From NCBI GenBank assembly GCA_026396675.1, contig JAPLWI010000010.1, positions 1 to 43,464 of the forward strand: 43,464 nt of DNA, in the 5' to 3' direction. The number at the start of each line of letters is the position of its first letter. Positions within the stretch are counted from its first letter, which is position 1. Under the pieces are notes generated by a model, which was not told the origin of the DNA, ran no database searches, and saw only the letters and a list, made by a program, of their open reading frames with translations. Position numbers and translations under genes: made by a program. Positions 3,607-43,193 of this stretch are shown here, piece after piece. The DNA comes from Candidatus Kaiserbacteria bacterium (GTDB taxonomy: Bacteria > Patescibacteriota > Minisyncoccia > Phycocordibacterales > Phycocordibacteraceae).

Positions 3607-3746
3607 GTTTTTAGTATAACAGAGTCATAAATAAGTCCTTCATGTCGGCACTTCACAGTACTTGACATAATGATTTAGAAGTATACTCTGTGAATAGAAA
3701 TTTTGCGAGAAGTACATTCAATTAACCTGAAAGAGGAGGAATCGAA

Positions 3747-4192: not shown

Positions 4193-5515
4193 CTATTTAG
4201 AATAATATTCGCGAACAAAATCCTCGCGATATTCGTCAAAATTCCCGTCAAGAATTGCCTCTCGCGCACCGGCGACGAGATCCAAGATAAATTTCAGATT
4301 GTGCATTGAAGCAATAGTCGCGCCGAGCATCTCACCACTTCGTAAAAGATGCGACATATATGCGCGAGTAAATCCAGATGTGATGGACTTCGTAAATCCA
4401 TCATCAGAGGATGGATTTACGAAGTCCCGACATTCCGAGAGCGGCGTGAAATCGGAGTGATATTTTTCATTTTTTAAATGAATCAAACCGTGCTTTGTGT
4501 AAATAGAACCGTGCCGCCCGAGGCGCGTTGCCGCGACGCAGTCAAAAAGATCCATACCATTCGCAATGCCTTCGAGAATATCTCCTGGCTCGCCGATGCC
4601 GAGAAAGTGCCGCGGCAATTCTTCGGGTAATTCGGCAACTGCTGCTGCAAGTGCGCCGCGCATATCTTCTTTTGAAAATGACCCGCCGATACCGATGCCG
4701 TCGAATCCTAAACGCGAAATCTCGCGTGCTGATTCCCTTCGTAAATCCTCGTGACGACCGCCTTGAACGATGCCAAAAAGTGCCTGTTTTTTATTCGCAT
4801 TAATATTCTGTCGATGCGTCTTCAGAGACCGTTCTGCCCAGCGATGTGTGCGCTCCATTGCTTCGCGTTGATATTCATATGGCTCGGTTGGCGAAGTACA
4901 TTCGTCAAACGCAAAAAATATATCTGCACCGAGTGCATGTTGTATTTCTACCGAGCGTTCCGGCGTGAAGCGGTGTAGTGACCCGTCAAGGTGTGAAGTG
5001 AAAGAAACGCCTTCATCATCAATGATTGCAAGTTGGCCATGTTGACTTGCTACTTCTTCATCAAAAACAGCGAGCCCATGTTTGGACTTCGTAAGTCCAT
5101 CATCAGATGATGGACTTACGAAGTCCTTCACATCATCGCGTGTAAATTTGGAAATGGTTTTGTTAAACGCAGCACCGAGAGAGAATACTTGGAAGCCGCC
5201 GGAGTCGGTCATTGTCGGCCCCCACTCCGCAGAAGCTCCGCGGGGCGAGCCCTTCCAATTCATAAATTTCGCCAAGCCGCCCGCGTTTTTTACAATCTCT
5301 TCGCCCGGCTGAAGATATAGATGATAAGTGTTCGCGAGCACAACTTCAGCGCCGAGCGCCACGAGTTGTTCTGGGAGAATTCCCTTTACGCTTGCTTTGG
5401 TGCCAACAGGAGCGAATGCGGGTGTGTGAATGGCGCCGTGAGGGGTTTCAATGACGCCAGCGCGCGCCCGGCAACCGGGCGCGCGTTGTTCTATTTTAAA
5501 ATTAATCGCTCCCAT
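4193..5515 (-). CDS. tgt: tRNA-guanine transglycosylase carrying three palindrome-derived in-frame inserts
   Basis: TPHG..TP.F.PVGT, LANTYHL, TDSGGFQVFSL, FDEC, FGIVQGG, DLFDC, HNL. Confidence 0.96.
   Translation of the reverse strand: MGAINFKIEQRAPGCRARAGVIETPHGAIHTPAFAPVGTKASVKGILPEQLVALGAEVVLANTYHLYLQPGEEIVKNAGGLAKFMNWKGSPRGASAEWGPTMTDSGGFQVFSLGAAFNKTISKFTRDDVKDFVSPSSDDGLTKSKHGLAVFDEEVASQHGQLAIIDDEGVSFTSHLDGSLHRFTPERSVEIQHALGADIFFAFDECTSPTEPYEYQREAMERTHRWAERSLKTHRQNINANKKQALFGIVQGGRHEDLRRESAREISRLGFDGIGIGGSFSKEDMRGALAAAVAELPEELPRHFLGIGEPGDILEGIANGMDLFDCVAATRLGRHGSIYTKHGLIHLKNEKYHSDFTPLSECRDFVNPSSDDGFTKSITSGFTRAYMSHLLRSGEMLGATIASMHNLKFILDLVAGAREAILDGNFDEYREDFVREYYSK
4385..4427. repeat. family A REP doublet, in frame in tgt
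   Basis: GGACTTCGTAAATCCATC-ATCAGAG-GATGGATTTACGAAGTCC; perfect 18-bp arms. Confidence 0.92.
5084..5126. repeat. family A REP doublet, in frame in tgt
   Basis: GGACTTCGTAAGTCCATCATC-A-GATGATGGACTTACGAAGTCC; perfect 21-bp arms; 40/43 identical to 4385-4427. Confidence 0.92.
5218..5247. repeat. family G palindrome, in frame in tgt
   Basis: GCCCCCACTCCGCAGAAGCTCCGCGGGGCG; encodes extra residues between MNWK and GPTMTDSGG. Confidence 0.65.
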
Positions 5516-5537
5516 CACTCACAACTATGCCCTACAA

Positions 5538-17229: not shown

Positions 17230-17970
17230 TTATACCATCTGCACAATCGCGTAGATCACGAATGCACCGAGAAGCGTCATGATTGTTGTAAGCGCACGAG
17301 GATGTCGGTGGTGACTCTCGGGAATAAGATCGCTTGCCGATAGATAGAGAAATGTACCGACAAAAATGGCGAGCACGAGTCCTATGAATGATTCAGGAAT
17401 GCGAAAGAACAATGTTGAGACAACACCGAGAACTGGAGCTACCGCATCTACAAATAACCACCTGAACGCCTGCCAGCGGCTTCCTTCATTTCGCAGAATA
17501 AAGCTCACGGTATTGATGCCGTCGGAAAAATCGTGCGTCAACACCGCGGTTGTAACGACAATGCCGACAATCGTCGATGCTTGGAAACTGACTCCAATCG
17601 CGATGCCATCAAGAAAGCTATGTGTGGAAAGTGTAAGCGCTCCGAACGCTCCGCGAGATCCACGAGGTGACACCTTACGATTTTCGTAAGGTGTCACCTC
17701 GTGGTCAGTGTGCGTATGTAGAAGAATAAGCCGGTCTAAAATAAGATAGCCGAAAAATCCGAGGGCGATAAATAACGTAACTATTGAAGCATCGTGCCAG
17801 CCATTTCCAAGCTTGATTGCCTCAGGAAGAAGGTCAAAGAGTGCGACGCCGGCGACTGCACCAGCAGAAAATCCTAAAATGAGATGTAACCGATCACGGA
17901 ATCGTAGCGCGAATAAGCCGCCGACTAGAGTCGCGACGAATGCGGCGCAACTAATTAAGACAACGGTCAT
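17230..17970 (-). CDS. ZIP family metal transporter
   Basis: DLLPEA, HSFLDG, HDFSDG, DLIPE; His-containing loop. Confidence 0.92.
   Translation of the reverse strand: MTVVLISCAAFVATLVGGLFALRFRDRLHLILGFSAGAVAGVALFDLLPEAIKLGNGWHDASIVTLFIALGFFGYLILDRLILLHTHTDHEVTPYENRKVSPRGSRGAFGALTLSTHSFLDGIAIGVSFQASTIVGIVVTTAVLTHDFSDGINTVSFILRNEGSRWQAFRWLFVDAVAPVLGVVSTLFFRIPESFIGLVLAIFVGTFLYLSASDLIPESHHRHPRALTTIMTLLGAFVIYAIVQMV
17660..17704. repeat. family B REP doublet, in frame in the ZIP gene
   Basis: CCACGAGGTGACACCTTACGA-TTT-TCGTAAGGTGTCACCTCGTGG; perfect 21-bp arms, 45 bp. Confidence 0.92.
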
Positions 17971-19422: not shown

Positions 19423-19437
19423 GGGTTTACGAAACCC
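19423..19437 (-). repeat. family A single REP, intergenic
   Basis: Minus strand GGGTTT-CGT-AAACCC. Confidence 0.65.
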
Positions 19438-24172: not shown

Positions 24173-25345
24173 TCAATCCACCATGGTTCCGATAGTACTG
24201 TCTTGGCTGACGAACGCAACTGCTCGCGCAAGCGCCTTTCGGAAGCGAACAAACGCACGCGGGCGAATGTCCGGACCCCAAGAAATGCGCAACGTCGCAC
24301 GAGCGCGCGTTGTGTCTCCAGTCAGAGCAAATACCGCACGCGAGCCATTTTCAGAATCGGTCTCGCACGCACTTCGTGTAGAGACCGCGAACTCTTCTTC
24401 ATCAAGAAGCGCAACGATATAGTCAGTGTCTCGGTTCGGTAAGGAAATGTTGAGAATGTTAGAGGATTGGACACGGCCTTCATTTATATATACGGTCGGA
24501 AGTGTATTTTTGATGAACTCAATAAGTTTGATTCGTTCTATCTTCGCACTCGCACAAAATTTCTCCCGGCCGACAACTGCGGCAGAAAGATCAGCTGCAA
24601 AGTTTCGTGCGAGTTCAAACGGTTCGCTACCAGGACGTAATCCCCTTTCTTGTCCGCCGCCGCGGTACAACGGCTCTAGCGGAATGGTTCTATGCGCGAT
24701 GAGTGCGCCGATGCCGCGCGTTGTTCCTACTTTTGAAGAATCAAATGTCAGCATATCCGCGTCAAAATGCGCGCGAGAGATTTTTTCTGTGAGCGGCGCC
24801 TGACTCGCGTCGACGTGCAGAAGAATCCCTCGCTTCGCTCGGGATGGCTCGCGTATGACGCTCGCCACTTCTCTCGTGTTCCATACAGTACCCGTTTCGC
24901 CACATACAGCGTCCATCGAAATAAGAACTGTTTCTTTTCGTATCATTTTTTTCAGTGCTTCAATATTGACGCGATAATTGGCAATTGGCAGTTCTTCTAT
25001 TTCTACTCCTTCTCGCGAAAGTAATTTTATATTTTCAACTACAGATGCGTGTGCACTCGGCAGATACAGGACATGTAACGTGGACTTACGAAGTCCTGAC
25101 ATTCCGAATCCTGATATTAGGGACTTCGTAAGTCCTCGAACCGACCCGAGTATTGCGAGGGCATTTGCTTCGGTCGCACCGCTTGTGAAGATAACGTCAT
25201 CTGGCTGTACTTCAATCAGTCGCGCGATATCTGCACGCGCCCTCTCAAGCTGCTCTCGAGATCTTCGACCTTCCTCGTGCGGTGACGATGTATTTGCACT
25301 CGCACCCGCTGCACGATCGAGATTTATTGGCGTTGTTTTAAACAT
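24173..25345 (-). CDS. cysteine desulfurase (IscS/NifS-like, class V PLP enzyme)
   Basis: FTSGATEAN, HAS, ETGT, HVDASQ, SSK, GGGQERGLRPGS, STRSAC, LRISWG. Confidence 0.92.
   Translation of the reverse strand: MFKTTPINLDRAAGASANTSSPHEEGRRSREQLERARADIARLIEVQPDDVIFTSGATEANALAILGSVRGLTKSLISGFGMSGLRKSTLHVLYLPSAHASVVENIKLLSREGVEIEELPIANYRVNIEALKKMIRKETVLISMDAVCGETGTVWNTREVASVIREPSRAKRGILLHVDASQAPLTEKISRAHFDADMLTFDSSKVGTTRGIGALIAHRTIPLEPLYRGGGQERGLRPGSEPFELARNFAADLSAAVVGREKFCASAKIERIKLIEFIKNTLPTVYINEGRVQSSNILNISLPNRDTDYIVALLDEEEFAVSTRSACETDSENGSRAVFALTGDTTRARATLRISWGPDIRPRAFVRFRKALARAVAFVSQDSTIGTMVD
24825..24845. repeat. family C-like element, in frame in the desulfurase gene
   Basis: ATCCC-TCGCTTCGCTC-GGGAT. 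Confidence 0.6.
25082..25135. repeat. family A REP pair, in frame in the desulfurase gene
   Basis: GGACTTACGAAGTCC (25082-25096), 24-nt spacer, GGACTTCGTAAGTCC (25121-25135); 54 bp. Confidence 0.9.
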
Positions 25346-26841: not shown

Positions 26842-26860
26842 CGCAAGGTGTCACCTTACG
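26842..26860. repeat. family B REP supplying a stop codon
   Basis: CGCAAGGTGTCACCTTACG; contains the TAA of the 26856-27500 gene. Confidence 0.8.
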
Positions 26861-33302: not shown

Positions 33303-33671
33303 TTAATTCCAGCATGGGTAACAAGGGCAACGGCGTCCTTCTCTGTCTCCAATGCAGTCGAGGAATGGGGTTAGACGACTCTCATCATCTTCCTTAATTT
33401 CCCATTGTTCTCCCGATATCTTTTCAGCTATCAGGATTTGCCGTTCAGGAGAGAACTCGATGATTTTCCACTCATCCGAATCCATTCGAACCGACAAACG
33501 AGTAGTCATGTTGGTAAATGTCGCAGCGGCGACGCTACCAACATAGTCGAATAGTGTTGTTATCTCATCGACGATTTTTTCTCTAAAGTTACGGGATTCC
33601 GTGTATGTCTCTCCGCCAACAATGATGGAAACTTTAAGCGGTCCGTGGAAAGGATCATCTAGCGATTTCAT
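33303..33671 (-). CDS. orphan hypothetical protein, SD-led
   Basis: AAGGAGG 4 nt before ATG; TTGACT-17-TAATCT upstream. Confidence 0.7.
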   Translation of the reverse strand: MKSLDDPFHGPLKVSIIVGGETYTESRNFREKIVDEITTLFDYVGSVAAATFTNMTTRLSVRMDSDEWKIIEFSPERQILIAEKISGEQWEIKEDDESRLTPFLDCIGDREGRRCPCYPCWN

Positions 33672-33769
33672 ATTGCCTCCTTACTTTTTCTTTTTCTTTT
33701 TTTATATTTTACAGATCTAATCTGAAATTAAGATTAACATATCATCTAGCCAGAGTCAATTTGAAGTTA

Positions 33770-33788
33770 AGCGAAGTCAGACTTCGCT
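33770..33788. repeat. family F palindrome, intergenic
   Basis: AGCGAAGTC-A-GACTTCGCT. Confidence 0.7.
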
Positions 33789-33857
33789 ACTGTTGTGCAA
33801 AAAACTAGATTTTAAGCCATATTTTCATAATCAAAGCTCTATATCTTGTAAAAAAGT

Positions 33858-33880
33858 TGAAAGATTTCGTAAACCTTTCA
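33858..33880 (+). repeat. family A REP, left flank of RAYT
   Basis: TGAAAGATTT-CGT-AAACCTTTCA. Confidence 0.88.
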
Positions 33881-33895
33881 TGTATTATGGAAGGC

Positions 33896-34579
33896 ATGGA
33901 ATTATGGCATGTATTAAATCACGGGGTTGAAGGACGAGACTTATTTCTTGACACACAAGATTACGCGCGTTTTGTGCATAATCTCTACGAATTTAATGAC
34001 TCTGCTCCTGCCGATAATCTTTGGCGCCTCTTTGATCCGTCTGGAATGAAAGATTTCGTAAACCCTTCATTTAGAAAAGCGAGACGGCTGCTAGTGGACA
34101 TTCACGGTTGGGTACTAATGAAGAATCATTATCACCTGCTCCTTTCAGAACGCGCGGAGAACGGAATCAGTTTATTTCTTCGCAAATTGAATGTTGGCTA
34201 TTCGAATTATTTTAATGCACGCTACAAGCGTCGCGGAACTTTATTCCAAGGTCGCACAAAAAAGATTTTGATAGAAAATGAATCGCATTTCTTATACATT
34301 CTTCATTATTTGCATCTTAATCCTCTCGATTATCTTGAGGGTGCCAAGGAATGGCGTCTACGAAACAAGAGTGGAATCAAGAACATGAATGATGCACTGG
34401 AGTATCTCGACTCATATCGCTGGAGCAGCTATCTGGACTATATTGGGAAAAAGAATTTTCCGTCTGTTATTACGACTGCATTTTTTAATAGTTCACTTGG
34501 CGACTACCGCACCTCGCTTAGCGAATATCTTCGCGATGCCGAATACGATAACGACTTCACCAAGCTGATGTTTGAATGA
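33896..34579 (+). mobile_element. REP-associated tyrosine transposase (RAYT/TnpA-REP, HUH Y1 family)
   Basis: HVLNHG..F.D..DY, VLMKNHYHLL (HUH), YFN.RY.R.G.LFQGR, YLHLNP (catalytic Tyr), YRWSSY; TATTAT 7 nt before ATG 33896. Confidence 0.92.
34045..34071 (+). repeat. family A REP inside the RAYT gene
   Basis: AATGAAAGATTT-CGT-AAACCCTTCATT, encodes MKDFVNPSF. Confidence 0.88.
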
Positions 34580-34609
34580 AAGGTTTTGAAAGGTTTACGA
34601 AACCTTTCA
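34577..34609 (-). repeat. family A REP, right flank of RAYT, inverted, with a partial duplicate containing the RAYT stop
   Basis: TGAAAGGTTT + TGAAAGGTTT-ACG-AAACCTTTCA. Confidence 0.88.
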
Positions 34610-34613
34610 TTTT

Positions 34614-34958
34614 TCATTTAGAGCGCATGAGGCGGACTAGGCGGATTGTTTCAAATGAATGGCGGCCACCGAGTGAATGGAAAACGGGCGAGAGGCGATC
34701 GCTCTTTTCATCTGAGAGCGCTTCATGTATTTCGTCAACAACACTAATCGGGACGAGATGTGCGAAGTCAGCGCGCCTTAACTTCCCTATTTCTGACAAC
34801 TCTTCCAAATGCTTTACGATAGTGCTCATTGTCAGTCCACGCGCTTTCGCTGTCTCTTTTAAACTTCTTGTATCGCGCGCGGCTTGAAGCGTTTCTGCAA
34901 GTCGACCAGGAAGTCCGGCGGAGCCGGACTTCCCACTTTCCATCAAACCACGCCCCAC
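34614..34958 (-). CDS. helix-turn-helix domain (RecQ/PIF1 C-terminal HTH type); probable out-of-frame end of the helicase
   Basis: AKARGLT.STI..HLE.L and RL.PVF..L...SF..IRLVR patterns. Confidence 0.7.
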   Translation of the reverse strand: MGRGLMESGKSGSAGLPGRLAETLQAARDTRSLKETAKARGLTMSTIVKHLEELSEIGKLRRADFAHLVPISVVDEIHEALSDEKSDRLSPVFHSLGGRHSFETIRLVRLMRSK

Positions 34959-36297
34959 CCATTGCCTTCACAAACTTCTTCTGCATATCAATTACTTCTG
35001 CCTTCGACATTTCAGCAAACGCATCGCGCGCCGCGTCTGACGCGGCGCGAAAATCCCTGTCCTTCTTCAAAATTTCCGGATGCACTTCGAGCGCGCGTTC
35101 ATTCAATCCAGTGAGATATACCCCGGAGAGCCGCCGCACTCTAGAGAGGGCGACATAGCCCTGTCCATATTCAAACGCCTTTGAGAGATCCATAATCGCG
35201 GCGTCCATACTCATTCCTTGGCTTTTATGCACCGTCATCGCATAGGCGAGCCGGAGCGGAATTTGCGAAATGCTCGCCTTCACTTTTCCTTGTTCTTCAA
35301 GTTGCCACTCCATTGGCTCGGTCGTTATTTTCAAACCATCTTTTGTTTTTATGATGGGCGAACCGTCTGCACCCCATCCACTCACAATACCAAGCGTACC
35401 GTTTACGAACCGCCCTTTGTGGCCCGAAGGTCCCGAGTAAGTCGAGGGGGAGTTTTTTGTGAACATTACCGCCGCGCTTTCTTTCAATTCAAGAATTTCT
35501 GGCGAGAGACATCCGCGCATCAAACCCTCCACGAGCGAATCCTTGCCCTTTGAACTCATATGGAATTTTTTCGCTTTGCCGGAAATCTTTTCAAGCTCTG
35601 CCGCATTGATTCGATCAACGTCGGCATTATGCGAAAAGAGTTTCGGTGCCTCACATTCGTTCGGCATCTCCGACAAGATTACTTGTCTCGATACAAGTTG
35701 TTCGCGATGCACTTCTTCGACCTCGCCCGACCGAATCGCCGAAAGTATGCCGAGAAATTCAGCATCGTCCTGTCTATACTGTTCTGTGAGGTAACAGATA
35801 ATTGGATTCAATTCTCGCCAGACCGGCGATGCGAATGCGAATTCAACATCCTTCGCGCGTGACACTGGCGGTAACTGGAAAAAATCTCCAACTAGAATAA
35901 CTGTGAGCCCGCCGAATGGTTTATCAACGCGTCGCACCTCGCGGCATATTGAATCCGCCATCTCGAATGTTGCCGCGCTAAGCATCGAGATTTCTTCAAT
36001 AATCAGTACCTTCGCTTTCGCAATCCGCTTCGCGATATGTTCTTTACTCGCGATTCGGTCCACATCAGCTCTCGTGAGCGAATCACTAACGCCGATGCCA
36101 CTCCACGAGTGAAGCGTCATACCGCTAACATGCGTCGCCGCGATGCCAGTCGCTGCAGTTACCGAGGGTTCAATTCCAGAGGCACGCAACCATGCGATAA
36201 ATTCATTTATCGTGTGCGTTTTCCCACTTCCGGGTTCACCGGTAAGGAAAACGTTGGCGCCCGTTTTTAATATTGTAAGCGCCTCGCTTTGTGTCAT
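34768..36297 (-). CDS. PIF1-family helicase, frameshifted near 34905-34960
   Basis: NVFLTGEPGSGKT, TLHSW.G, EEISML, PFGG..VGDFFQLPPV, QIPLRLAYAMTVHKSQGMS, GQGYVALSR. Confidence 0.93.
   Translation of the reverse strand: MTQSEALTILKTGANVFLTGEPGSGKTHTINEFIAWLRASGIEPSVTAATGIAATHVSGMTLHSWSGIGVSDSLTRADVDRIASKEHIAKRIAKAKVLIIEEISMLSAATFEMADSICREVRRVDKPFGGLTVILVGDFFQLPPVSRAKDVEFAFASPVWRELNPIICYLTEQYRQDDAEFLGILSAIRSGEVEEVHREQLVSRQVILSEMPNECEAPKLFSHNADVDRINAAELEKISGKAKKFHMSSKGKDSLVEGLMRGCLSPEILELKESAAVMFTKNSPSTYSGPSGHKGRFVNGTLGIVSGWGADGSPIIKTKDGLKITTEPMEWQLEEQGKVKASISQIPLRLAYAMTVHKSQGMSMDAAIMDLSKAFEYGQGYVALSRVRRLSGVYLTGLNERALEVHPEILKKDRDFRAASDAARDAFAEMSKAEVIDMQKKFVKAMGGAWFDGKWEVRLRRTSWSTCRNASSRARYKKFKRDSESAWTDNEHYRKAFGRVVRNREVKAR
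34909..34933. repeat. family F-like hairpin at the helicase frameshift
   Basis: GGAAGTCCGGC-GGA-GCCGGACTTCC. Confidence 0.8.
35421..35450 (-). repeat. family C element, in frame in PIF1
   Basis: Minus strand CCCCCTCGACTTACTCGGGACCTTCGGGCC (PSTYSGPSG). Confidence 0.6.
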
Positions 36298-43115: not shown

Positions 43116-43193
43116 CCGTAAGGTGTTTCCTTACGGCTCTGCGTAAGGTGACACCTTACGGATTTCCCCTCGCCGCGAGGTGTCACCTTACGG
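43116..43193. repeat. intergenic cluster of three family B REPs
   Basis: CCGTAAGGTGTTTCCTTACGG (43116-36), CGTAAGGTGACACCTTACG (43142-60), CCGCGAGGTGTCACCTTACGG (43173-93); alternating orientation. Confidence 0.88.

What the first reader, a model, noticed from the sequence alone, without database searches (positions are those of the whole stretch)
33858..34609. RAYT transposase with a cognate REP family whose copies sit in frame inside housekeeping genes
Seen: an intact HUH/Y1 transposase bracketed by inverted hairpins (33858-33880 and 34587-34609), with a third copy translated inside its own ORF (MKDFVNPSF). The same TT-CGT-AA apex recurs at 4385, 5084, 19423 and 25082 on different but self-complementary stems (AAGGTTT/AAACCTT, GGGTTT/AAACCC, GGACTT/AAGTCC), i.e. 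covariation. A flanking GGAATG precedes several copies. The left REP lies where the RAYT -35 would be. Known: RAYT-REP/REPIN systems of E. coli and Pseudomonas are extragenic and start with GTAG-like tetranucleotides. Inference: a non-GTAG RAYT-REP class that spreads doublets into coding sequence, linking a mobiliser to Rickettsia-RPE-like coding repeats, possibly with autoregulation.
Basis: partly seen in the sequence, partly recalled or inferred. Interest (0 to 1): 0.88.

Follow-up and report, generated by a model that had tools for sequence, protein, structure and literature searches.

The report
Hairpin-flanked transposase and in-gene palindromes
A tiny-genome (CPR) bacterium has a hairpin-cutting, transposase-like gene with its own DNA hairpin before, inside and after its reading frame, while related hairpin pairs sit translated inside ordinary enzymes; each piece has a precedent elsewhere, but this lineage and layout were not in the papers I searched.

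Summary
ORF 33896-34579 is an intact RAYT-class Y1/HUH nuclease: H78/H80/Y138 are invariant, and the model's best PDB match is E. coli RAYT 4ER8. One hairpin type lies 15 nt before its ATG, in frame at codons 51-58, and just after its stop.

Among 76 homologous loci from other species, 69 share a string of 10 nt or more across all three zones. The hairpin sequence differs between species, with compensatory stem changes.

Related 43-nt REPIN-like doublets sit in frame in Tgt (twice), an IscS-like gene, GltX, Dus, MiaA, TsaD and others (11 of 14 doublets are in genes). Orthologues show empty sites or different palindromes in the same loops.

- This RAYT's own hairpin type has only its three local copies. 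The dispersed GGACTT doublets are nearer the paralogue on another contig.
- Intragenic REPs (Di Nocera 2013) and in-frame REPs inside tnpA-REP genes (Quentin 2018, subclass 2.4) are already published.
- Autoregulation is untested.

New here: a non-GTAG CPR clade, motif-wise like the "REP-less" subclass 2.1, with an internal copy upstream of HUH, and turnover of palindromes at fixed slots.

This scan had already noted both the in-frame palindromes (same genome) and the three-hairpin layout (other genomes).

The parts
33858..33880 (.). 5' hairpin (type T1, loop CGT), 15 nt before the ATG of the RAYT gene
   Evidence: (D7, I6); DNA fold -3.5 kcal/mol, z -1.85
33883..33888 (+). -10-like hexamer TATTAT ending 7 nt before the ATG (inferred promoter element, leaderless-type spacing)
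   Evidence: a hexamer matching TATAAT at 5 of 6 or better in 11 of 12 close RAYT loci, against 169 of 609 crude genes; not called by the consensus scan
33896..34579 (+). RAYT-class Y1/HUH nuclease gene, 227 aa
   Evidence: Pfam Y1_Tnp 23.7 bits against cut-off 23; NCBIfam REP_Tyr_transpos 37.7 bits against cut-off 80; model pLDDT 89.1; best PDB match 4er8_A, E 3.4e-6
34047..34069 (+). internal in-frame hairpin copy (codons 51-58, peptide MKDFVNPS), in the low-confidence loop between helix 20-32 and strand 67-74
   Evidence: block pLDDT 56 for residues 41-60; weak fold, z -0.5
34127..34135 (+). HUH motif codons H78-Y79-H80
   Evidence: invariant H78 and H80 in 100 sequences
34307..34309 (+). 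catalytic-type tyrosine Y138 in YLHLNP
   Evidence: invariant Y138
34587..34609 (.). 3' hairpin (perfect 10-bp stem, loop ACG) between the RAYT stop and the end of the convergent helicase frame; also terminator-like
   Evidence: -8.3 kcal/mol, z -5.9; terminator-like site
4385..4427 (.). REPIN-like doublet (type T2b) in frame in tgt, peptide DFVNPSSDDGFTKS, in the former zinc-motif loop
   Evidence: (D12, I1)
5084..5126 (.). second REPIN-like doublet in tgt, perfect 21-nt arms, peptide DFVSPSSDDGLTKS
   Evidence: (I21)
4193..5518 (-). tgt (queuine tRNA-ribosyltransferase) host gene, intact 441-aa frame
   Evidence: (E 6.8e-86 to PDB Tgt)
25082..25135 (.). pair of GGACTT hairpins in the opposite relative order, 24-nt spacer, in frame in an IscS/NifS-like gene (24173-25345, minus strand)
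19423..19437 (.). single GGGTTTACGAAACCC hairpin between convergent ORFs, beside a terminator-like hairpin
33770..33788 (.). hairpin AGCGAAGTCAGACTTCGCT of another type (T5), the type that flanks the RAYT paralogue on G000:C18

Best explanation
The locus is a REPtron-like unit of a CPR-specific branch of the REP-associated tyrosine transposases.

Shown:
- The gene encodes an intact Y1/HUH single-strand-DNA nuclease.
- Its cognate hairpin, a palindrome with an ATG...CAT foot and a C-G-centred 3-nt loop, occurs three times: over the promoter region, in frame in a surface loop upstream of the HUH motif, and at the stop codon.
- The three copies change together from species to species.
- Related hairpins occur as singlets and as inverted doublets that fold into one long hairpin (REPIN form).
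- In this 640-kb genome, which is about 90% coding, the doublets lie mostly inside genes.
- Sites in orthologues are empty or hold other palindromes.

Inferred:
- The enzyme, probably together with its paralogue on another contig, binds these hairpins on single-stranded DNA. It cuts and joins at their foot, as shown for E. coli TnpA-REP and IS608 TnpA, and so spreads and homogenises them.
- Copies in genes survive only in the one frame of the palindrome that has no stop, and only in protein loops that tolerate 14-20 extra residues.
- Resident copies at a given slot are replaced or converted to the genome's current hairpin type.
- The promoter-side hairpin may let the enzyme influence its own transcription.
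For: Enzyme:
- Pfam Y1_Tnp and NCBIfam REP_Tyr_transpos at E 1.7e-9.
- H78, H80 and Y138 invariant in 100 homologues.
- Model pLDDT 89.1, with best Foldseek match 4er8_A (RAYT bound to a REP hairpin, E 3.4e-6, TMt 0.68) ahead of IS608 and ISDra2 TnpA.

Linkage of gene and hairpin:
- In 29 RAYT loci of relatives, 24 share a string of 10 nt or more between the 5' and 3' zones, and 15 share one among all three zones. The control between different loci gave 54 of 812.
- In 76 loci of other species with both flanks, 69 share across all three zones. The control gave 892 of 5700.
- On 71 aligned 5' hairpins, 11 of 13 stem pairs change on both sides. There are 234 compensatory cells against 81.4 +/- 7.8 in shuffles (0 of 500 reach it). 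The covariation score is 0.653, against 0.045-0.216 when the partner is slid.

Co-occurrence:
- Exact GRTTTCGTAAAYC occurs 10, 10, 20 and 7 times in G000, G009, G023 and G001, which hold a close RAYT. It occurs 0 times in G003, G018, G020 and G017, and 3 times in G005.
- The GTCGGGACGT type is found only in G005 and G013, whose RAYTs carry it.
- G000 has five RAYT genes, each with its own hairpin type.

In-gene copies are insertions:
- Tgt site 2 is a 12-residue gap against solved Tgt.
- 14 of 20 (site 2) and 16 of 20 (site 1) same-genus orthologues lack a palindrome there. Others hold different palindromes.
- States are interleaved on the Tgt tree, with sister pairs that differ.
- The GltX loop holds a palindrome in 7 of 18 same-genus and 0 of 7 outgroup orthologues.
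- The palindrome of G001 at that loop matches the hairpin of G001's own RAYT.

Frame filter: the canonical 43-mer has one open frame per strand, and 11 of 14 doublets lie in crude genes against 0.865 expected at random.

Recent spread: the 7 type-A doublets differ from one another by 0-2 positions.
Against: - No activity is shown.
- The window RAYT's own hairpin type has no dispersed copies (3 of 3 are at the gene). Which RAYT, if any, moves the GGACTT doublets is therefore open.
- The insertions are not clean. At Tgt site 1, about 60 nt stand where empty orthologues have about 21 nt. At site 2 the net gain is 11 residues. A simple peel-and-paste insertion does not predict this.
- G024 carries a GGACTT doublet in GltX but has no close RAYT (best match 40% identity).
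- No empty-site variant was seen in public runs that hold this DNA (contigs only).
- NCBIfam scores far below its cut-off (37.7 against 80), and a profile search of PDB sequences found nothing.
- The 5' hairpins were picked as best palindromes, so the paired fraction is inflated by construction.
Confidence: 0.75

Rival explanations
1. The hairpin-gene-hairpin unit is itself a mobile IS200/IS605-like insertion sequence, with the hairpins as its left and right ends. The doublets are its non-autonomous derivatives (PATE/MITE-like). It is not a domesticated, vertically kept RAYT. This overlaps with the best explanation and differs in who moves.
For: - None of 29 other RAYT loci shares the window's flanking genes within 1.5 kb.
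- In G009 and G007 the HAD gene and the helicase gene abut with about 7 nt between them. The window holds 1.35 kb there, including the RAYT.
- Other RAYT clades sit at the same helicase 3' end in G023, G011, G006 and G024.
- There are 5 RAYT genes in 640 kb, and up to 10 matches in G001.
- In G000:C16 all three hairpins have the same loop orientation, as IS608 ends do.
Against: - No identical or near-identical gene copies exist. The closest paralogue is 75% identical.
- The fold is closer to 4ER8 than to IS608 or ISDra2 TnpA.
- The protein is 227 aa with a C-terminal extension.
- Loop orientation flips freely between loci.
- The insertion boundaries could not be defined, because a 122-aa ORF lies in the same gap.
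Confidence: 0.3
2. The hairpins are host structural or regulatory elements (terminators, mRNA stabilisers, protein-binding sites). The transposase-like gene merely sits among them.
For: - The 3' hairpin is terminator-like and lies between convergent genes.
- The 19423 copy lies after convergent ORFs.
- Published REPs have such roles (abstract of PMC3733652).
Against: - It does not explain an in-frame copy at a fixed codon position that changes with the flanking copies in 69 of 76 loci.
- It does not explain copies inside protein loops.
- It does not explain the co-occurrence with RAYT type.
Confidence: 0.08
3. The inserted peptide (DFVNPSSDDGFTKS) is selected as a protein module, for instance in tRNA- or rRNA-acting enzymes. 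The DNA palindrome is secondary.
For: Of 20 host ORFs, 6 act on tRNA (Tgt, GltX, Dus, MiaA, TsaD, AlaRS). Two are small methyltransferases of rRNA-modifying type, and one is an IscS-like desulfurase.
Against: - Copies are identical at synonymous positions and are perfect palindromes.
- Only one frame is open, so the shared peptide is forced.
- Other species have different peptides or nothing in the same loops.
- The same elements occur outside ORFs.
- No background count of tRNA genes was made, so no enrichment is shown.
Confidence: 0.04

Closest known systems
REPtron: RAYT / TnpA-REP gene flanked by its cognate REPs (E. coli YafM, PDB 4ER8; Nunvar 2010 PMC2817692; Ton-Hoang 2012 PMC3333891)
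   Same: Y1/HUH enzyme whose best structural match is 4ER8. The gene is bracketed by its own palindromes, there is one hairpin type per gene, and doublets form one long hairpin.
   Different: - There is no GT[AG]G tag; the foot is ATG...CAT.
- A third copy lies in frame inside the gene.
- Hairpin families are tiny (3 to about 36 units).
- There are five paralogues and no synteny.
- Most doublets are intragenic.
TnpA-Y1 subclass 2.4 with REPs inserted in frame inside tnpA-REP (Quentin et al. 2018, PMC6006769; passages read)
   Same: REP copies lie inside the transposase gene without breaking the frame, in a peripheral variable region.
   Different: [quoted passage not shown]
- Here there is one copy at a fixed place upstream of HUH, and the motifs are NHYH / FQ / Y-x-HLNP.
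TnpA-Y1 subclass 2.1 / TIRYT (Quentin 2018 table and text; Group 1 of Bertels 2017, PMC5581495)
   Same: The motif pattern NH[YF]H, FQ, Y[IV]HLNP, the serine motif after the Tyr, and the length class (about 238 aa) match by eye.
   Different: That subclass was reported to have no REP-like sequences near the gene. Here the hairpins are plain. Membership was judged from printed motifs only, not from a tree.
Intragenic GTAG- and CGTC-tagged REPs (Di Nocera et al. 2013, PMC3733652; passages read) and Rickettsia palindromic elements (as cited there)
   Same: Palindromic repeats, often dimers, are translated in frame inside intact genes, including tRNA synthetase and repair genes. Some genes are hit twice.
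   Different: - The tag and the lineage differ.
- Here intragenic copies are the majority rather than the exception.
- The same loops hold different palindromes in sister species.
- RPEs are longer (recalled, not checked here).
IS200/IS605 insertion sequences and their palindrome-bearing derivatives (PDB 2A6O, 2XO6)
   Same: Same enzyme superfamily, with subterminal hairpins at both ends of the gene.
   Different: Weaker structural match (E 3.7e-4 and above). There are no identical copies, and the protein is longer.

Membership tests
RAYT / TnpA-REP (class 2 TnpA-Y1) | HUH motif and catalytic Tyr in a Y---NP motif | tested here: met
   NHYH and YLHLNP; H78, H80 and Y138 invariant in 100 sequences
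RAYT / TnpA-REP (class 2 TnpA-Y1) | Fold of TnpA-REP | tested here: met
   Predicted model only: pLDDT 89.1; top PDB match 4er8_A, E 3.4e-6, TMt 0.68
RAYT / TnpA-REP (class 2 TnpA-Y1) | Score above the curated profile cut-off | tested here: inconclusive
   Pfam Y1_Tnp 23.7 against 23. NCBIfam REP_Tyr_transpos 37.7 against 80. PDB sequence profile search: 0 hits
RAYT / TnpA-REP (class 2 TnpA-Y1) | Gene flanked by its cognate palindromes | tested here: met
   Window; 24 of 29 loci; 74 of 76 loci
RAYT / TnpA-REP (class 2 TnpA-Y1) | Cognate REP family dispersed through the genome | tested here: inconclusive
   The window gene's own type has 3 of 3 copies at the gene. Related types T2/T2b have 36 units in all
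RAYT / TnpA-REP (class 2 TnpA-Y1) | 5' GT[AG]G tetranucleotide at the hairpin foot | tested here: not met
   0 of 36 units have GTAG or GTGG in the four bases before the core. The consensus foot is ATG...CAT
RAYT / TnpA-REP (class 2 TnpA-Y1) | Single copy, vertically inherited (domesticated; Bertels 2017) | tested here: not met
   5 matches in G000. No shared flanks in 29 loci. Empty site in G009 and G007
RAYT / TnpA-REP (class 2 TnpA-Y1) | Cleavage and joining of single-stranded REP DNA | not testable with these tools
   Needs purified protein
IS200/IS605 insertion sequence | Several identical or near-identical copies of the whole unit | tested here: not met
   Closest paralogue is 75% identical in protein; the others are 35-36%
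IS200/IS605 insertion sequence | Subterminal hairpins at both ends and a Y1 enzyme | tested here: met
TnpA-Y1 subclass 2.4 (in-frame REPs in the gene) | [quoted passage not shown] | tested here: not met
   The internal copy is at residues 51-58, before H78. There is no GT[AG]G. Features as printed in PMC6006769
TnpA-Y1 subclass 2.1 | Motifs NH[YF]H, FQ, Y[IV]HLNP, SS extension; no REP nearby | tested here: inconclusive
   The motifs fit by eye. The 'no REP' trait is contradicted. No reference sequences or tree were used
Rickettsia palindromic elements | Palindromic repeat inserted in frame in intact genes | tested here: met
   This is likeness of behaviour only; no sequence relation was sought

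The most novel reading that the evidence does not exclude
The conserved ATG...CAT foot is the cutting and joining tag of this RAYT clade. It lets the enzyme swap the hairpin between two feet rather than only insert it. A resident palindrome, in a protein loop or in the RAYT gene itself, would then be overwritten in place by the genome's current hairpin type.

This would explain three things:
- the three gene-borne copies change together;
- the same loops of Tgt and GltX hold different palindromes in sister species, with identical boundaries in four GltX genes;
- the insertions are not clean additions.

Protein loops of essential enzymes would then be long-lived 'slots' of a hairpin population.
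Probability: 0.25. Interest if true: 0.8.

Novelty: new variant of a known kind. Interest (0 to 1): 0.6.

Why it matters
REP/RAYT biology rests on Proteobacteria, where the repeats are extragenic, GTAG-tagged and numerous.

Here a very large CPR family (15,150 cluster representatives at E up to 0.001) shows a compact version. There are a few hairpins per genome and several enzyme/hairpin pairs in 640 kb. A recognition site is kept inside the enzyme's own reading frame. Because there is almost no intergenic space, the repeats live as translated loops in essential enzymes.

This gives a small, tractable system for two questions:
- how a Y1 nuclease and its hairpin co-evolve;
- whether such elements reshape protein loops.

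It also matters for annotation. Odd 14-20-residue inserts in CPR housekeeping proteins, and spurious start codons, can come from these palindromes.

Tried and rejected
- Strict scans for perfect stems around TTCGTAA found only 9 hairpins genome-wide. A loop-triplet comparison was barely informative. The reason is that single hairpins carry a mismatch while the long doublet palindrome is perfect; a profile search and a degenerate core were needed.
- The first structure prediction, with 20 close sequences, was poor (pLDDT 47.5) and was not used.
- A profile search of PDB sequences found nothing.
- The consensus promoter scan found no site in 33600-34800.
- Rfam found only four tRNAs in the window and nothing at the hairpins.
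- Public runs: 10 rows hold the tgt stretch or part of it, and 6 of those may be the source. Contigs of four runs were laid. One contig of a possible source run spans both doublets unchanged. One contig of another study spans the first doublet unchanged. Extra contigs pile on the two doublet bins and run on into unlike sequence, which means other copies. No joint that removes a doublet was seen. Contigs drop rare variants, so this says nothing about excision.
- I considered that the 4-bp stem plus 7-nt loop (UUCGUAA / UUACGAA) mimics an anticodon loop, given the tRNA-enzyme hosts. I dropped the idea: the U and A are forced by the closing T-A pair, other clade members have loops that do not fit, and no test was available.
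- No enrichment of tRNA genes among hosts is claimed, because no background count was made.
- The 122-aa ORF beside the RAYT (33303-33671) is not linked to RAYTs elsewhere (no hit in 29 loci).
- Literature searches for this layout in CPR: 'RAYT' + 'Patescibacteria' gave only word collisions. 'Candidate Phyla Radiation' + palindromic/repeat/transposase/inserted listed nothing on REP or RAYT elements in CPR bacteria. 'REPtron' gave 6 listed papers, none on CPR by title or abstract. Term searches inside PMC2817692, PMC8266576 and PMC3333891 found no internal REP.
Figure S10 of PMC6006769 and Additional file 3 of PMC3733652 may hold cases closer to this one.
Full report
WHAT IS THERE

The window is a whole 43,464-base contig (C17) of a 639,746-base, 30-contig genome. 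Between 33858 and 34609 lie three copies of one small palindrome:
- TGAAAGATTTCGTAAACCTTTCA at 33858-33880;
- a 93%-identical copy at 34047-34073;
- TGAAAGGTTTACGAAACCTTTCA at 34587-34609.

The ORF lister starts the frame at TTG 33857. However, the product on record is 227 aa from ATG 33896 (P0003), and all homologues begin at MELWH. The first hairpin therefore lies 15 nt upstream of the gene. The second is translated (G-M-K-D-F-V-N-P-S-F, residues 50-59). The third follows the stop codon.

As single-stranded DNA:
- the 3' copy folds well (-8.3 kcal/mol, z -5.9);
- the 5' copy folds moderately (z -1.85);
- the internal copy folds poorly (z -0.5). In this genome the internal copy is a decayed hairpin.

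THE ENZYME

- Pfam gives Y1_Tnp just above its cut-off (23.7 against 23 bits).
- NCBIfam gives REP_Tyr_transpos at E 1.7e-9, but far below its cut-off (37.7 against 80).
- The family is large: 1,994 proteins at E up to 1e-5 in the word-indexed search, and 15,150 cluster representatives at E up to 0.001 in the exhaustive one.
- In 100 diverse members, H78, H80 (the HUH motif), N107, G114 and Y138 (in Y-x-HLNP) are invariant.
- A first model from 20 close sequences was poor. With 100 sequences the model reaches pLDDT 89.1.
- Its best match among solved structures is 4ER8, the E. coli REP-associated transposase bound to a REP hairpin (E 3.4e-6, TMt 0.68). This is ahead of the IS608 and ISDra2 transposases.
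- The only internal low-confidence stretch is residues 41-60, the loop that the internal hairpin encodes.

GENE AND HAIRPIN BELONG TOGETHER

A search of 41 related genomes found the gene in 29. I cut three zones from each of the 29 loci that could be placed: 90 nt before the start, codons 35-75, and 90 nt after the stop.
- 24 loci share an exact string of 10 nt or more between the 5' and 3' zones.
- 15 share one among all three zones.
- All 11 loci at 48% identity or more have the internal copy.
- Zones of different loci match in 54 of 812 pairs (sequences).

A wider draw gave 236 confirmed loci, of which the best 80 were kept (one genome per species).
- 76 loci had both flanks.
- 69 of them share a string among all three zones, and 75 have an internal copy that matches a flank.
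- Controls: 892 of 5700 between loci, and 9 of 76 against the rest of the same ORF.

The hairpin differs from species to species (for example ATGTCGGGACGTACGACGTCCCGACAT, ATGTAGGGTGTCCGACACCCTACAT, ATATCGGGATTTCGTAAATCCCGATAT), while the three copies within a locus agree.

I aligned 71 of the 5' hairpins. Of the 80 loci, 7 had none by my criterion and 1 had too little flank. Of the 72 found, I dropped 2 (one held N, and in one the script had picked another hairpin). The window's own was added. The alignment has no gaps.
- 11 of 13 stem pairs show changes on both sides.
- There are 234 compensatory cells against 81.4 +/- 7.8 in shuffles (0 of 500 reach it).
- The covariation score is 0.653, against 0.045-0.216 when the partner column is slid.
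- These hairpins were chosen as the best palindrome in the zone, so the 90.5% pairing is partly built in. The string-sharing test does not depend on pairing.
- Invariant features are the G-C pair at column 9, the closing T-A pair and a C-G-centred loop. The usual foot is ATG...CAT. None carries GTAG.

Loop orientation (CGT or ACG) flips freely between copies.

PROMOTER SIDE

The consensus scan found no sigma-70 site. Yet 11 of 12 loci at 48% identity or more have a hexamer matching TATAAT at 5 of 6 or better, mostly ending 6-8 nt before the ATG and directly after the hairpin. Among crude genes of the genome, 169 of 609 have such a hexamer. That places the hairpin in the spacer/-35 region of a probably leaderless transcript. 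It is inference, and autoregulation is untested.

THE DISPERSED ELEMENTS

Genome-wide there are 36 units of the TTCG(T/G)AA-apex super-family and 14 doublets.

Seven doublets are near-identical 43-nt palindromes, GGACTTCGTAA(A/G)TCC-ATCATC(A/T)GATGAT-GGA(T/C)TTACGAAGTCC, differing at 0-2 positions. They fold as one long hairpin, the REPIN form (-20 to -23 kcal/mol).
- The single hairpins carry a mismatch that the long palindrome does not.
- Units are preceded by ATG at -10..-3 in 27 of 36 cases (background 9.3%), and by GAATG in 9 of 36 (background 1.0%).
- Eleven of 14 doublets lie wholly inside crude genes. A random 43-mer does so with probability 0.865, so coding sequence is not avoided.
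- The canonical 43-mer has a stop in two of three frames on either strand, so in-gene survivors all read DFVNPSSDDGFTKS.

Hosts identified by Pfam are Tgt (two doublets), an IscS-like desulfurase, TatD, GltX, Dus, MiaA, a DNA polymerase III delta-prime-like protein and TsaD. With the genome's other hairpin types the list adds AlaRS, two small methyltransferases, RecG, transketolase N, a ZIP transporter, a GT4 glycosyltransferase and a large beta-helix protein.

THEY ARE INSERTIONS, AND THE SITES TURN OVER

Tgt:
- Against solved Tgt, the second Tgt element is a 12-residue gap, and the first lies in a longer insert.
- By a scripted criterion (perfect stem of 7 or more, loop up to 7), a palindrome is present at site 1 in 4 of 20 same-genus orthologues and at site 2 in 6 of 20.
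- At site 2 none of the 10 same-order outgroups has one. At site 1 two outgroups have 7-8-bp stems.
- The palindromes are of different types: G024, G011 and G015 at site 1; G024, G011, G009 and G002 at site 2. The sixth site-2 count, L052 (G007), is a 7-bp stem that may be chance.
- On a Tgt tree built without the two loops (28 of 30 rows; L064 and L072 dropped as too short), occupied and empty states are interleaved. Two well-supported sister pairs differ in state.

GltX:
- A palindrome is present in 7 of 18 same-genus and 0 of 7 outgroup orthologues. Two more are visible by eye (arms 13 nt apart in G024, and a 6-bp stem in G010).
- Four GltX genes (G000, G024, G001, G023) have the element between the same flanking bases, but with different cores.
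- G001's core is the hairpin of one of G001's own RAYT genes. That RAYT carries it at C41:275, 467 and 1004, around and inside the gene at C41:314-958. It occurs at about 20 places in G001 and nowhere in G000 or G023.
- G024 has the G000-type core with a non-palindromic spacer, and no close RAYT. This looks like decay.

The insertions are not clean additions. At Tgt site 1, about 60 nt replace about 21 nt. I cannot explain that by simple insertion.

WHICH ENZYME, WHICH HAIRPIN

G000 has five RAYT-family genes, each with its own hairpin type:
- T1 at the window gene;
- T2 at G000:C16 (75% identical protein with the same three-copy layout);
- T3 at C29;
- T4 at C23 (also with an internal copy);
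- T5 at C18.

T1 occurs only at its gene (3 of 3). One doublet in MiaA, with a CGG loop, is its nearest relative. The GGACTT doublets (T2b, 20 units) differ from T2 at two core positions and share its ATCAT foot, while they differ from T1 at about six positions. In other species GGACTTCGTAAGTCC-type hairpins are the own hairpins of other RAYTs of this clade.

Co-occurrence holds at genome level:
- Exact GRTTTCGTAAAYC is found 10, 10, 20 and 7 times in G000, G009, G023 and G001. It is found 0 times in G003, G018, G020 and G017, 3 times in G005 and 2 times in G015.
- The GTCGGGACGT type is found only in G005 and G013 (5 and 6 sites, three of them at each RAYT).

THE GENE ITSELF HAS MOVED

- None of 29 other RAYT loci shares the window's flanking genes.
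- In G009 and G007 the HAD-type phosphatase gene and the PIF1-like helicase gene abut, with about 7 nt between them. In G001 about 100 nt with two hairpins lie there.
- In the window 1.35 kb lie there: a 122-aa ORF, a T5 hairpin and the RAYT unit.
- In G023, G011, G006 and G024 a RAYT of another clade sits at the same helicase 3' end.
- This differs from the single-copy, vertically inherited picture of Proteobacterial RAYTs (Bertels 2017, passages read). It keeps an IS-like reading alive, although there are no near-identical gene copies.

WHAT IS KNOWN

- Nunvar 2010 describes RAYT genes as always flanked by two inverted REPs (abstract and passages).
- Di Nocera 2013 reports REPs inside genes of several species, often as dimers of 20-30 residues, including tRNA synthetase and repair genes. 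The paper equates some with Rickettsia RPEs (passages).
[quoted passage not shown] It reports no REP-like sequences for subclasses 2.1 and 2.3 (passages).
- The present family fits the printed motifs of subclass 2.1 (NH[YF]H, FQ, Y[IV]HLNP, serine motif, about 238 aa) by eye. It carries plain hairpins and a fixed internal copy upstream of HUH. No tree was made.
- My searches found no paper on REP/RAYT in CPR bacteria. Supplements could not be read.
- Record titles of the related loci read Candidatus Kaiserbacteria, Paceibacterota and Patescibacteria.
- This scan has noted the in-frame palindromes in this same genome and the three-hairpin RAYT layout in other genomes before. I tested both points here independently.

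VERDICT

It is a new variant of known kinds: a non-GTAG, CPR-wide RAYT clade with a co-varying in-frame recognition hairpin, and small REPIN families that live mainly as translated loops in housekeeping enzymes and turn over at fixed sites. The mechanism (binding and cutting at the foot, in-place replacement, self-regulation) is inferred, not shown.

Noticed in passing
window 34614-36297 (minus strand): The PIF1-like helicase reads as 509 aa (34768-36297). Orthologues have 559-575 aa in one frame. Their last ~100 residues match the separate window ORF 34614-34958 in another frame. This points to a frameshift near 34930-34960, real or from assembly.
   Followed up: partly
window 4193-5518 and loci L046-L075: In the 20 same-genus Tgt orthologues that cover this loop, none has the CxCxxC zinc motif, which most same-order outgroups keep. 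The second palindrome sits exactly in that loop.
   Followed up: no
window 17661-17703, 26842-26860, 43117-43192: A second palindrome family (CACGAGGTG-N-CACCTTACG type). There is a doublet with 21-nt perfect arms in frame in a ZIP transporter ORF (17230-17970, minus strand), a single copy between genes, and three copies in a row near the contig end. Its RAYT lies at G000:C29:15864-16376.
   Followed up: partly
G000:C30:2891-3844 (L005): The MiaA gene carries two palindromes of different types: a CGG-loop doublet at 3677-3725 and a T4-like hairpin at 2998.
   Followed up: no
host genes across G000: Of 20 host ORFs, 6 act on tRNA (Tgt, GltX, Dus, MiaA, TsaD, AlaRS). Two are rRNA-methyltransferase-like and one is IscS-like. 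No background count was made, so this is a hint only. Di Nocera 2013 also lists tRNA synthetases among REP hosts.
   Followed up: partly
G000:C16:6771-6790 and window 34574-34583: Hairpin feet supply apparent start and stop codons. The MnmA-type ORF on C16 seems to start with ATG ATG inside the RAYT's 3' hairpin. In several loci the RAYT's TGA stop lies in the hairpin foot. ORF starts called inside such palindromes may be artefacts.
   Followed up: no
G000 contigs C3, C9, C25, C26, C27: These contigs have 54-65% G+C, against 40-48% for the other 25. They may be contamination of the bin.
   Followed up: no
window 33303-33671 (minus strand): A 122-aa ORF with no Pfam match lies in the same insertion gap as the RAYT. 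It is not found beside the other 29 RAYT loci.
   Followed up: partly
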